Source: Eledone cirrhosa (taxonomy: Eukaryota). From it: a stretch of 64,000 nucleotides of DNA. The DNA lies in NCBI GenBank assembly GCA_964016885.1, contig OZ024754.1, positions 14,632,001 through 14,696,000 of the forward strand, in the 5' to 3' direction. A program made the position numbers and the translations under genes. The notes beneath the pieces are model-generated. The model did no database searches, was not told the origin of the DNA, and saw only the letters and a program-made list of their open reading frames with translations. This document shows, piece after piece, positions 11,653 to 44,968 of the stretch (positions within the stretch are counted from its first letter, which is position 1; every line of letters starts with the position of its first letter).

Positions 11653-12389
11653 TTATAACAAATAAACAAAAGATAAAACATAGACGTTTGAATAAAAAAA
11701 CCTAAAGCAAATTTATTGTCTTTTAGAACTTTCTAAATGTATCTTGCATCATTGCTGTCAATAAATAATTTAACAACTTCTTCACAATTAATCTTTTTCA
11801 AAACATCTCTATGAAGGTGGCATATTAGAATATGATTCAACCTTTGCTGAGACATGGTCGATCACAGCCAAGTTTTGAGCCTCCACACAGCGCGAAAAGA
11901 CCTTTCAGCTGAGTTGAGCTTTTTTTAATTTTTAGCAAAAGGATGTAAATATCGAACAAACAAAATTCAATACCGATTGCAACTTAGGGTCTATATATAT
12001 TCATATAAATATATGCACGTAAAAAAACATGTAAAAATATGTATTATACATATGTATGACTTGTTAGTGGGATATCCTTTATTTTTTAATTGGGAAAAAG
12101 TAGGGAGGGGACAAAAGATCGTATATTTCCCGTTCCTGAAAAAGTTGGTACTACCCTGGTACGACCCTGAAACAAGGCCCTTGGCTCTAGCAGATGTTAT
12201 ACCGACACTATACCAAAAGACCGCGCCATAGACAATGGCCAAAGATGTTTTATTTATTGTTGGCGGGTTTTCTGAGTGTATTATGTATTATTTACGTTTA
12301 GGGCATTCGATGATTACTTTGCTTTTGTCTGGCTGTGTCTGCTTTCGGAATATTGTGTGTTCGACGTTTGACGGTCCTACATGCTTCTT

Positions 12390-12465
<76 letters not shown>

Positions 12466-12469
<4 letters not shown>

Positions 12470-13218
12470 AGTATGCATGTATACGTGGTTGCCTTAACAC
12501 CGTATGGCATAAATTCAGGCTGTTCAGTTTGTTTACAAACGAACAAAGCGACGTTAGCGCCGCTAAACTGATACGTGCATATATGTATGTGTACCTGTAT
12601 GCATATGTATATATATATGTATATATATATATATATGTGCATGCTACTGTACGTCTGTATACATATATGTATGTACGTATACATGCATACTTACATTTAA
12701 GTAAGTGCCATACTAAGAGTGAGAAATGAAATTTCGTTTTCATTTTGTTTCAATTTATCGTTTTCGGTATGCCTGACCGATTTAACTCACTCAATATGCA
12801 AATTAGGCTGCTCAGCCGTTAATTTTCATAAGGAAAGTATATACTTTCGAACGTTCAACTATCTGGCAGATGGGTAAACGGTGCTGATGATAGCTAACAA
12901 GCTTGAAACTAGTACATCGTTCCTGTGTCAGTGTTGAACAAAAAGGTGACGTGGTTGCCTTAACACCGTATGGCATAAATTCAGGCTGTTCAGTTTGTTT
13001 ACAAACGAACAAAGCGACGTTAGCGCCGCTAAACTGATACGTGCATATATGTATGTGTACCTGTATGCATATGTATATATATATGTATATATATATATAT
13101 ATGTGCATGCTACCGTACGTCTGTATACATATATGTATGTACGTATACATGCATACTTACATTTAAGTAAGTGCCATACTAAGAGTGAGAAATGAAATTT
13201 CGTTTTCATTTTGTTTCA

Positions 13219-13222
<4 letters not shown>
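12466..13222 (+). mobile_element. HHR element, family I/H: about 1.6 tandem 466-nt monomers with short 5' inversion, (TA)n-flanked
   Basis: 12483 repeats at 12949 (period 466); 12466-12486 is the reverse complement of internal sequence; homologous to 31740-33053 and 44192-44712. Confidence 0.8.
12877..12921 (+). ncRNA. Minimal type I hammerhead ribozyme motif
   Basis: AACGGTG-CTGATGA-T AGCT AACA AGCT T-GAAA-CTAG-TA-CATCGTT. Confidence 0.9.
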
Positions 13223-13287
<65 letters not shown>

Positions 13288-13348
13288 AAGAAGCATGTAG
13301 GACCGTCAAACGTCGAACACACAATATTCCGAAAGCAGACACAGCCAG

Positions 13349-13395
<47 letters not shown>

Positions 13396-31653: not shown

Positions 31654-31739
<86 letters not shown>

Positions 31740-31743
<4 letters not shown>

Positions 31744-33049
31744 AAATAACGAAACGAAATTAAATTTCGTTTCGTTTATAACTCACTTTTGTATGACTGA
31801 CGCTTAAACAATTAAGTTAAAAATGTACATCCACATATGTATACTGAAATACTAGTATGCATATGAATACACACACGTATACATATGTAGATGTACCGAG
31901 TTTTTCACTGGTCACTTTACTGTGAGTGTCCAGCTATTCTGTATGTAAACACACAGACAAACCGGTTTTTAGAGTCATACTGGTTTTTGAGGAAACACCT
32001 TTCCTCTATTCTCCAGAAAGCCAGACAAGGAATATTGAACTAGTTTCGATGTTGTTACATCTCATCAGCAATATTTACCTATCTTCCGGCCCTTCTAGAG
32101 AATCGTAAAAGCACATATCGTTATATGCTTTTTCTATGAAAATTAGTAGTGGGAAGACTAATTTGCATAGAGCGTGAGTACGTACCGGTTCAACGGAGAC
32201 GATAAAAACAAATAACGAAACGAAATTAAATTTCGTTTCGTTTGTAACTCACTTTTGTATGACTGACGCTTAAACAATTAAGTTAAAAATGTACATCCAC
32301 ATATGTATACTGAAATACTAGTATGCATATGAATACACACACGTATACATATGTAGATGTACCGAGTTTTTCACTGGTCACTTTACTGTGAGTGTCCAGC
32401 TATTCTGTATGTAAACACACAGACAAACCGGTTTTTAGAGTCATACTGGTTTTTGAGGAAACACCTTTCCTCTATTCTCCAGAAAGCCAGACAAGGAATA
32501 TTGAACTACATATGTATACGTGTGTGTATTCATATGCATACTAGTATTTCAGTATACATATGTGGATGTACATTTTTAACTTAATTGTTTAAGCGTCAGT
32601 CATACAAAAGTGAGTTACAAACGAAACGAAATTTAATTTCGTTTCGTTATTTGTTTTTATCGTCTCCGTTGAACCGGTACGTACTCACGCTCTATGCAAA
32701 TTAGTCTGCCCACTACTAATTTTCATAGAAAAAACATATAACGATATGTGCTTTTACGATTCTCTAGAAGGGCCGGAAGATAGGTAAATATTGCTGATGA
32801 GATGTAACAACATCGAAACTAGTTCAATATTCCTTGTCTGGCTTTCTGGAGAATAGAGGAAAGGTGTTTCCTCAAAAACCAGTATGACTCTAAAAACCGG
32901 TTTGTCTGTGTGTTTACATACAGAATAGCTGGACACTCACAGTAAAGTGACCAGTGAAAAACTCGGTACATCTACATATGTATACGTGTGTGTATTCATA
33001 TGCATACTAGTATTTCAGTATACATATGTGGATGTACATTTTTAACTTA

Positions 33050-33053
<4 letters not shown>
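31740..33053. mobile_element. Family I/H: 466-nt tandem on minus strand (31740-32508) fused to an inverted copy (32506-33053); HHRs at 32031-32075 (-) and 32787-32831 (+)
   Basis: 31891 repeats at 32357; AATATTG-CTGATGA-GATG TAACAA CATC-GAAA-CTAG-TT-CAATATT; (TA)n on both sides. Confidence 0.9.
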
Positions 33054-33111
<58 letters not shown>

Positions 33112-35063: not shown

Positions 35064-35399
35064 TAAAAATTCCAGGAACTGCTTACATAGGAAATATCCG
35101 AAATCGGCCATCCGAACGCCACAACTAAGTAAACATCTTGTTGAGTCAGTTGAGTCAACCAACGCCGCTCGTTAAAACCCTCCACAGTACAGATTACTCG
35201 TAACCTCTCCTGGATTACCTTAAACGATACCCCCTTTTACTTCAATATATATGTATATCTATATATATATATATATATATATATATGAGGGTCATAAAAT
35301 TCTCATCTAAGCACACAACAGACAAAAACAAGATGGTGTAGGAACGAACAAAGGAGAGACACAATATATATGTATATATGTATATATATATATATATAT

Positions 35400-36916
35400 A
35401 ATTATAAAGAATTAATATCTAGTAACATATATATACATACAGATGCATATCAATGCTAGCAAATATATAGGTTTGCCTTAGTAACTTTGTGGTTCAATGC
35501 ATGGGGTTGCAGAACAATAATATGAGAGACGTAAAATAAGAAAATTATAAAATTAACTTACTTAATAAAATATCACTTCCAACTAATTAGTTTCTGAAAT
35601 GGAATAAATATACTTTACGAAGAAAGCATAGAGAATCATTTCGTCGTCAGGGAAGACTATTCTCAGCTAAGTATCCAGGCAAAGCGTGGACTCTGGATCT
35701 TATTCAAAAATAATTCAGTGGATAGAAAATAGCAAAGCGTGGACTGAATTCCTAGCCATTGAGAAAATCACTGCCTCTGCGTCGGTGGCAAATTCAAAAA
35801 GAATCAATCACGTGACATCGAGGTCATTCAGTGGAAAGTGGTTTGCTAATAAGACAGCGGCCTGCCTGCTACCATAGCAGCAGTCTTGGTCAATATTGCT
35901 CGACAAATAATTTGGAGATAATTATAAAGAATTAATATCTAGTAACATATATATACATACAGATGCATATCAATGCTAGCAAATATATAGGTTTTGTCTT
36001 AGTAACTTTGTGGTTCAATGCATGGGGTTGCAGAACAATAATATGCTATGGTAGCAGGCAAGCCGCTGTCTTATTAGCAAACCAGTTTCCACAGATTAAC
36101 CTCGATGTCACGTGATTGATTCTTTTTGAATTTGCCACCAACGCAGAGGCAGTGATTTTCTCAATGGCTAGGAATTCAGTCCACGCTTTGCTATTTTCTA
36201 TCCACTGAATTATTTTTGAATAAGTTTCCAGAGTCCACGCTTTGCCTGGATACTTAGCTGAGAATAGTCTTCCCTGACGACGAAATGATTCTCTATGCTT
36301 TCTTCGGAAAGTATATTTATTCCATTTCAGAAACTAATTAGTTGGAAGTGATATTTTAGTAAGTAAGTTAATTTTATAATTTTCTTATTTTACGTCTCTC
36401 ATATTATTGTTCTGCAACCCCATGCATTGAACCACAAAGTTACTAAGGCAAAACCTATATATTTGCTAGCATTGATATGCATCTGTATGTATATATATGT
36501 TACTAGATATTAATTCTTTATAATTATCTCCAAATTATTTGTCGAGCAATATTGGCAAAGACTGCTGCTATGGTAGCAGGCAGGCCGCTGTCTTATTAGC
36601 AAACCACTTTCCACTGATTGACCTCGATGTCACGTGATTGATTCTTTTTGAATTTGCCACCGACGCAGAGGCAGTGATTTTCTCAATGGCTAGGAATTCA
36701 GTCCACGCTTTGCTATTTTCTATCCACTGAATTATTTTTGAATAAGTTTCCAGAGTCCATGCTTTGCCTGGATACTTAGCTGAGAATAGTCTTCCCTGAC
36801 GACGAAATGATTCTCTATGCTTTCTTCGGAAAGTATATTTATTCCATTTCAGAAACTAATTAGTTGGAAGTGATATTTTAGTAAGTAAGTTAATTTTATA
36901 ATTTTCTTATTTTACG

Positions 36917-36924
<8 letters not shown>
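35400..36924. mobile_element. Family G: inverted pair of partial tandem arrays of a 522-nt monomer; HHRs at 35576-35655 (-), 36269-36348 (+), 36791-36870 (+)
   Basis: CTTCC-CTGACGA-(GAAATG..TATGCTTTC TTCG GAAAGTATA..CATTTC)-GAAA-CTAATTAG-TT-GGAAG; period 36791-36269 = 522. Confidence 0.9.
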
Positions 36925-37007
<83 letters not shown>

Positions 37008-44062: not shown

Positions 44063-44712
<650 letters not shown>

Positions 44713-44968
44713 ATATATATATATATGTGTGTGTGTGTGTATATATATATCTACACCCACCACACACACATACAACCACATATATATATATCCATCTGTG
44801 TATATGTGTGTGTGTGGAGTGGGGGGGGGGGGGTGTTATAACCATTCTGTTTTTCCTGGAAGCAATCTGAAGATATGGCAGTGTAAGAATGCAGTCAGAA
44901 TTTCTAGAGGAATGCCTGGTTGCTAGGAGAGCGTAAACCGCACTGTTTGTGGGTATATACCGCTAAGA

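What the first reader, a model, noticed from the sequence alone, without database searches (positions are those of the whole stretch)
31740..33053. Two diverged subfamilies keep the same 466-nt monomer length and a fully covarying ribozyme
Seen: the tandem period is 466 here (31891/32357) and also 466 at 12466-13222 (12483/12949). The two share only patches such as ATGCAAATTAG.CTGC.CA and GAAA.GAAATTT. Their HHR stems differ in sequence but still pair: stem I AATATTG/CAATATT versus AACGGTG/CATCGTT, and stem II GATG/CATC versus AGCT/AGCT. CTGATGA, GAAA and the CTAG loop are fixed. Inference: selection on RNA structure, and possibly on unit length, in a non-coding replicon.
Basis: partly seen in the sequence, partly recalled or inferred. 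Interest (0 to 1): 0.8.

Follow-up and report, generated by a model that had tools for sequence, protein, structure and literature searches.

The report
Retrozymes carrying a Penelope insertion signature
This is one of about 28,000 genomic copies of a small non-coding, ribozyme-bearing repeat that is likely copied from RNA circles by a Penelope-type retrotransposon enzyme; its folded RNA shape is conserved, but the shared 466-base length is a coincidence.

Summary
Both loci show a 466-nt period and a type I hammerhead. Families A and B are collinear homologues (about 61% identical) that fold alike, with compensatory changes in stems I and II and in a helix outside the ribozyme. Two claims fail. 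Covariation is not full: the stem II base pair is G-C in A but a fixed U·U in B. Length is not conserved: B units run 454–573 nt (8 of 33 genome-order spacings are 466), and an equally abundant family C, closer to B than A is, has 420–453-nt spacings. Exact hammerhead matches: A 7,785, B 10,122, C 10,116. Stronger evidence lies in the insertion ends. Copies sit in (TA)n as head-to-head pairs, and in 43 of 44 scored pairs one arm ends at fixed site 1 and the other at fixed site 2, 60–70 nt downstream. This is the one-sided 'tail' of Penelope-like elements, also seen on Neptune-like elements here. The 5' ends are scattered and not enriched at the cleavage site, which fits a circular or uncleaved template. 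Verdict: a new non-LTR retrozyme family, likely mobilised by a Penelope-like enzyme. Partner element, expression and cleavage are untested or unidentified.

The parts
31671..31740 (.). (TA)n target tract, left
31736..32508 (-). Family A left arm, 1.65 units; its 3' end is at fixed site 2 (monomer position 302)
31736..31804 (-). One-sided 'tail' of about 70 nt between site 1 and site 2, present on this arm only
   Evidence: (inverted arm starts at 31805)
32038..32503 (-). One full 466-nt family A monomer, cleavage site to cleavage site; predicted branched fold, z -9.3
32015..32086 (-). Type I hammerhead; predicted GUU cleavage between 32038 and 32037; 1-bp stem III with palindromic CUAG loop
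32506..32508 (.). Head-to-head junction of the two arms with 3-nt microhomology
32506..33057 (+). Family A right arm; its 3' end is at fixed site 1 (monomer position about 230, in the loop of a small predicted hairpin)
32776..32847 (+). Type I hammerhead; predicted cleavage after 32824
32694..32701 (+). ATGCAAAT motif conserved in A, B and C (octamer-like, name recalled); also one arm of a predicted hairpin; function untested
33054..33111 (.). (TA)n target tract, right
12483..13224 (+). Family B main arm, period 466, ending at site 2; hammerhead core at 12884 with U·U stem II base, predicted GUA cleavage after 12914
12462..12486 (-). Family B short inverted arm (about 20 nt) ending at site 1
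44177..44714 (.). Older C-type head-to-head insertion with a degenerate hammerhead on the minus arm; ends at site 1 (44187) and site 2 (44714)

Best explanation
This is a non-coding tandem repeat family with one type I hammerhead per unit, inserted head-to-head into (TA)n tracts with two fixed end sites, and it is likely a non-LTR retrozyme reverse-transcribed from an RNA circle by a Penelope-like (probably Neptune-type) enzyme supplied in trans. Shown: hammerhead motif, homologous branched fold with covariation, TA targets, two fixed 3' ends (one per arm), scattered and mutually independent 5' ends joined by short microhomology, and young arrays whose units are identical across both arms. Inferred: a multimeric transcript is cut by paired hammerheads (the palindromic stem III suggests dimeric cleavage) and monomers ligate into circles. 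A GIY-YIG/RT protein then nicks both strands of a TA tract; one strand primes at site 1 and the other at site 2. Each cDNA runs around the template for a variable distance, and the two are joined end to end. Some arrays later grow by DNA-level block duplication. Unit length drifts freely as long as the helices are kept.
For: End sites: A about 224-233 and 301-303; homologous sites in B and C at about 247-255 and 305-311. All 36 of 36 head-to-head pairs scored had one end of each kind. Of 8 further pairs, 7 did and 1 had an arm ending elsewhere. Frangieh 2024 (PMC11167929) shows that a Penelope-like RT starts at two internal RNA sites that define the genomic 'tail'; Craig 2021 (10.1101/2021.04.23.441226) says the tail is usually on one end of an insertion with an inverted 5'-truncated copy. 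Neptune-like RT+GIY-YIG elements in this genome show the same TA ends and one-sided tail (L163, L175), and one carries a hammerhead with a U·U stem II base and a palindromic loop. 5' ends: 2 of 64 (A) and 0 of 30 (B) lie within 4 nt of the cleavage site, against 1.2 and 0.6 expected, so RT does not stop at the cut. Array C1:30.83 Mb has 18 identical units over both arms sharing 16 differences from the window copy. Covariation.
Against: No autonomous element with a terminal repeat homologous to A, B or C was found in 110 GIY-YIG loci (from 150 scored of 10,596 candidates). The matches there were recognisable A/B/C copies, and the three I inspected were separate insertions bounded by their own TA tracts. 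Cleavage, transcription and circles were not observed. Homogeneous arrays and read-through of the cleavage site also fit an uncleaved multimeric template. In PMC11167929 hammerhead cleavage was dispensable for insertion in vitro, and start sites did not differ between strands. In Li 2026 only 1 of 9 retrozyme dimers cleaved in vitro. About 30% of single-family MFE pairs are broken in the other family (32 of 105, 34 of 104), partly through misalignment.
Confidence: 0.8

Rival explanations
1. Same Penelope-type mobilisation, but the template is an uncleaved linear multimeric transcript of an existing array. The hammerhead serves another step, and no circle is needed.
For: Read-through of the cleavage site and identical units also follow from a homogeneous multimer. 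Cleavage was dispensable in vitro for the anole element (PMC11167929).
Against: The hammerhead is kept with compensatory changes across A, B and C. Arrays copied from linear transcripts could only shorten per generation, yet 12- and 18-unit identical arrays exist. Related retrozymes accumulate as circles (PMC7229834).
Confidence: 0.2
2. Unit length is selected at 466 nt.
For: A is tight (53 of 54 distinct monomers 461-471) and the youngest-looking B variants are 464-468 despite 36 balancing gap columns.
Against: Only 8 of 33 B spacings read from the first 100 listed places are 466 (range 458-538). 0 of 14 C spacings are 466 (420-453). B sub-lineages differ by 6-15 nt outside the microsatellite, and one array has two 508-nt units.
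Confidence: 0.04
3. A DNA-level satellite or rolling-circle DNA element; the fold and ribozyme are inherited relics.
For: Long arrays (31, 40 and 49 units) show 3-, 7- and 8-unit higher-order blocks typical of DNA duplication.
Against: Those long arrays still end at site 1 and site 2 in TA tracts where the ends were seen. Copies are dispersed in thousands, with variable 5' ends. Compensatory changes point to selection on RNA.
Confidence: 0.04
4. An autonomous viroid-like RNA replicon (RNA-to-RNA) that occasionally integrates.
For: Highly self-paired, hammerhead-bearing, non-coding unit.
Against: Within each arm the hammerhead motif lies on one strand only. About 28,000 genomic matches carry a retrotransposon end signature.
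Confidence: 0.03

Closest known systems
Animal non-LTR retrozymes (Cervera and de la Peña 2020, PMC7229834; Li et al. 2026, 10.64898/2026.07.22.740005)
   Same: Tandem non-coding units with one type I hammerhead each, self-paired fold, thousands of copies, several families per genome. The palindromic 1-bp stem III and the U·U at the stem II base are both described in axolotl retrozymes.
   Different: The sequence family is new to my searches. Head-to-head architecture, TA targeting and the two fixed end sites are not described in those main texts ('tail' 0 occurrences in each). No homologous autonomous terminal repeat was found here, unlike 21 of 57 Xenopus families.
Penelope-like elements with GIY-YIG endonuclease (Neptune, Poseidon; Frangieh 2024, Craig 2021)
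   Same: Inverted 5'-truncated partner arm, tail on one end only, two RT start sites, AT-rich or (TA)n targets, type I hammerhead.
   Different: No ORF. The tail is 60-70 nt rather than 30-40. The whole unit is a short, apparently circularly permutable structured RNA.
Rfam Hammerhead_HH9 (RF02275)
   Same: Core, stem I bulge and loop 2 layout align over 77 of 77 positions.
   Different: 36.5 bits against a gathering score of 52; stem III is shortened to a palindrome.

Membership tests
Non-LTR retrozyme | Type I hammerhead in every tandem unit | tested here: met
Non-LTR retrozyme | Short non-coding tandem units, dispersed in many copies | tested here: met
   frames of 140 aa or more over the units were microsatellite-type or unremarkable
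Non-LTR retrozyme | Highly self-paired predicted monomer | tested here: met
   z -9.3 and -8.0
Non-LTR retrozyme | Expressed as linear and circular RNA | tested here: inconclusive
   no RNA holder listed; laid contigs of unknown kind
Non-LTR retrozyme | Self-cleavage, more efficient as a dimer | not testable with these tools
   only the palindromic stem III duplex was computed, about -6.7 kcal/mol
Non-autonomous Penelope-like element | [quoted passage not shown] | tested here: met
   43 of 44 pairs
Non-autonomous Penelope-like element | Inverted, 5'-truncated partner arm; microsatellite target | tested here: met
Non-autonomous Penelope-like element | Autonomous RT+GIY-YIG elements with the same target in the genome | tested here: met
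Non-autonomous Penelope-like element | Homology to the terminal repeat of a specific autonomous element | tested here: inconclusive
   none found in 110 GIY-YIG loci out of 10,596 candidates
Viroid-like RNA replicon | RNA-to-RNA replication with both polarities | not testable with these tools
   no RNA data

The most novel reading that the evidence does not exclude
The retrozyme circle is a minimal, protein-free landing platform for a dimeric Penelope-type RT-endonuclease. Its conserved multi-helix scaffold assigns site 1 to one strand of the TA break and site 2 to the other, and both cDNAs roll around the RNA independently. Thousands of insertions would then record strand-specific twin priming on circles, directly linking retrozymes to Penelope enzymes and defining a portable RNA module for mobilisation in trans.
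Probability: 0.45. Interest if true: 0.62.

Novelty: new member of a known kind. Interest (0 to 1): 0.4.

Why it matters
The kind of element is known, and the headline claim (conserved 466-nt length) fails. What is useful is the insertion signature. The link between animal retrozymes and Penelope-like elements has rested on co-occurrence and terminal-repeat similarity. Here the retrozymes show the Penelope two-start-site tail with near-perfect one-per-arm asymmetry, and copying that runs through the cleavage site. That gives a direct test of how Penelope enzymes prime both strands and of whether circles are the template, with three diverged families marking which helices matter.

Tried and rejected
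Length selection: rejected. RNA evidence: no RNA holder listed; four runs of unknown kind were laid as contigs, all covering the unit, which says nothing on expression. A DNA search of the own genome with family B returned nothing, probably because the words are too common; patterns were used instead. Partner search: no homologous terminal repeat in 110 GIY-YIG loci. A pattern for hammerheads with a different stem II returned 464 matches, the listed 100 mostly mutated B/C/D copies; C and D monomers from those loci are therefore biased toward a broken stem II pair. Run-off at the cleavage site: rejected. Other Rfam hits (microRNA models, sraA) are chance matches to hairpins. The bacterial promoter scan is not applicable and gave chance-level counts. 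Earlier scan findings: none returned. Literature searches: (0 papers); none described this family. Supplements were not read and could list it. The host looks octopus-like to me from recalled repeat motifs; no call shows this.

Full report
Observation. The window is AT-rich, microsatellite-dense DNA from a 3.0-Gb genome. The period is 466 at 31741-32508 and at 12483-13224, with one mismatch between neighbouring units in each. The first locus is a head-to-head pair between two (TA)n tracts: a minus arm 31736-32508 and a plus arm 32506-33057. Both arms hold a type I hammerhead (Rfam HH9, E 3.2e-7, below gathering). I call this family A and the 12.5-kb one family B. They are collinear homologues: 306 of 502 columns identical, 36 gap columns on each side.

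Copy number. Exact hammerhead patterns give 7,785 matches for A, 10,122 for B and 10,116 for a third family, C; the reversed-pattern controls gave 0. These are hammerhead counts, not insertion counts. Mean identity is 0.61 for A-B, 0.61 for A-C and 0.79 for B-C.

Length. Distinct monomers held: A 461-471 in 54 of 55 (the other, 591 nt, includes part of a neighbouring B-type copy); B 454-573 in 41 (one is a mis-binned C unit); C 407-462 in 28 of 29, plus one of 529. From the first 100 places listed in genome order I read off by hand 33 B spacings under 600, of which 8 are 466 (range 458-538), and 14 C spacings, 420-453, none 466. B varies both in an internal TA-rich hairpin and, by sub-lineage, in the 125-140-nt left segment; 466 belongs mainly to the 125-nt variant. 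The match of 466 with 466 is therefore a coincidence within a lineage whose units drift from about 420 to over 500.

Structure. Monomers fold at z -9.3 (A) and -8.0 (B) into similar branched shapes. On a 16-sequence alignment, RNAalifold finds 22 of 72 pairs with a double change. With the TA hairpin left out and the structure taken from one family only, double changes that keep pairing were 15 (null 7.3±2.6, P 0.007) for A to B and 18 (7.5±2.7, P 0.001) for B to A. However, 32 of 105 and 34 of 104 pairs were broken, partly by sequence-only misalignment, and B to C was not significant for double changes (3 against 1.1). For stem I, stem II and one outside helix that brackets the TA hairpin, 10 of 18 pairs change on both sides and 93% of cells pair, against 21-52% when slid; these are few independent events. 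The stem II base pair is G-C in A and U·U in B and C, so covariation is not full. A U·U at that place and a 1-bp stem III with a palindromic loop that cleaves as a dimer are described in axolotl retrozymes (PMC7229834; parts 2-3 of 6 and passages read; PMC4209133, passages).

Ends. A arms end in TA tracts at monomer position 224-233 (site 1, in the loop of a small predicted hairpin) or 301-303 (site 2) in 55 of 57 ends. B and C end at the homologous positions. All 36 head-to-head pairs scored had one end of each kind. One search added 7 more and one exception whose arm ends at 115, giving 43 of 44. Two further irregular loci (L033, L089) did not meet the TA-end filter and are not in that count; none had the same site twice. 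All three window loci fit, including a 20-nt inverted arm on B. The 5' ends are spread around the unit, show no evident relation between arms, mostly share 0-9 nt of microhomology, and are not enriched at the cleavage site (2 of 64 and 0 of 30).

Arrays. Young arrays are identical across both arms: 18 of 18 units at C1:30.83 Mb, 12 of 12 at C2:210.04 Mb. Arrays of 31, 40 and 49 units carry internal 3-, 7- and 8-unit blocks, which points to later DNA-level duplication.

Partner. GIY-YIG gives 10,596 candidates, 150 scored. Long frames carry RT and, in one case tested, GIY-YIG; the Neptune label rests on the recalled Zn-finger linker and RT motif. Two such elements are head-to-head, end in TA and have a tail on one arm only (L163, L175), and one family has a hammerhead with U·U and a palindromic loop. 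None of 110 loci had a terminal repeat homologous to A, B or C, so the partner is unidentified.

Known context. Frangieh 2024 (PMC11167929, parts 1-3 of 4 read) shows two internal RT start sites that define the Penelope tail, cleavage and extension of both strands, and no need for ribozyme cleavage in vitro. Craig 2021 (12 of 21 passages seen) describes the inverted copy and the one-sided tail. Li 2026 (parts 1-3 of 5 read) argues from co-occurrence and terminal-repeat similarity that retrozymes are non-autonomous Penelope-like elements. 'Tail' does not occur in the main text of either retrozyme paper; supplements were not seen.

Verdict. A real, structurally selected non-LTR retrozyme family, likely mobilised by a Penelope-like enzyme (0.8). 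The circle step is inferred (about 0.65). Length conservation is refuted. New member of a known kind; the residual interest lies in the end signature.

Noticed in passing
window 35398-36926: An unrelated head-to-head repeat of period 522 between TA tracts, with a hammerhead-like core (36274, 36796). Its two arms end at different unit positions about 126 nt apart, probably another tailed family.
   Followed up: partly
window 13952, 25662-25875, 31132, 37599: A repeat family with a hammerhead-like core directly before a TA run; an inverted pair at 25.7-25.9 kb.
   Followed up: no
window 18888, 19224, 40254: Further hammerhead-like motifs resembling Penelope terminal-repeat ribozymes (resemblance recalled).
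   Followed up: no
window 12325-12392 and 13285-13352: The family B insertion is flanked by two inverted copies of another 68-nt sequence, both facing the same TA tract.
   Followed up: no
L050:2131-2895: Another tandem family of period 310 with a U·U stem II base and a palindromic CGCG loop.
   Followed up: no
L163:1775-5062: An uninterrupted 1096-codon frame with an RT match in an apparently full-length Neptune-like element with a one-sided tail of about 40 nt; no canonical hammerhead was detected in its terminal repeat.
   Followed up: partly
window 32694, 32161, 12796, 44492: ATGCAAAT is kept in A, B and C about 100 nt upstream of the hammerhead: a possible internal promoter element or a hairpin arm.
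   Followed up: no
window 32802 and 32813: Within family A a compensatory A-U to U-A swap in stem II defines two sub-lineages.
   Followed up: partly
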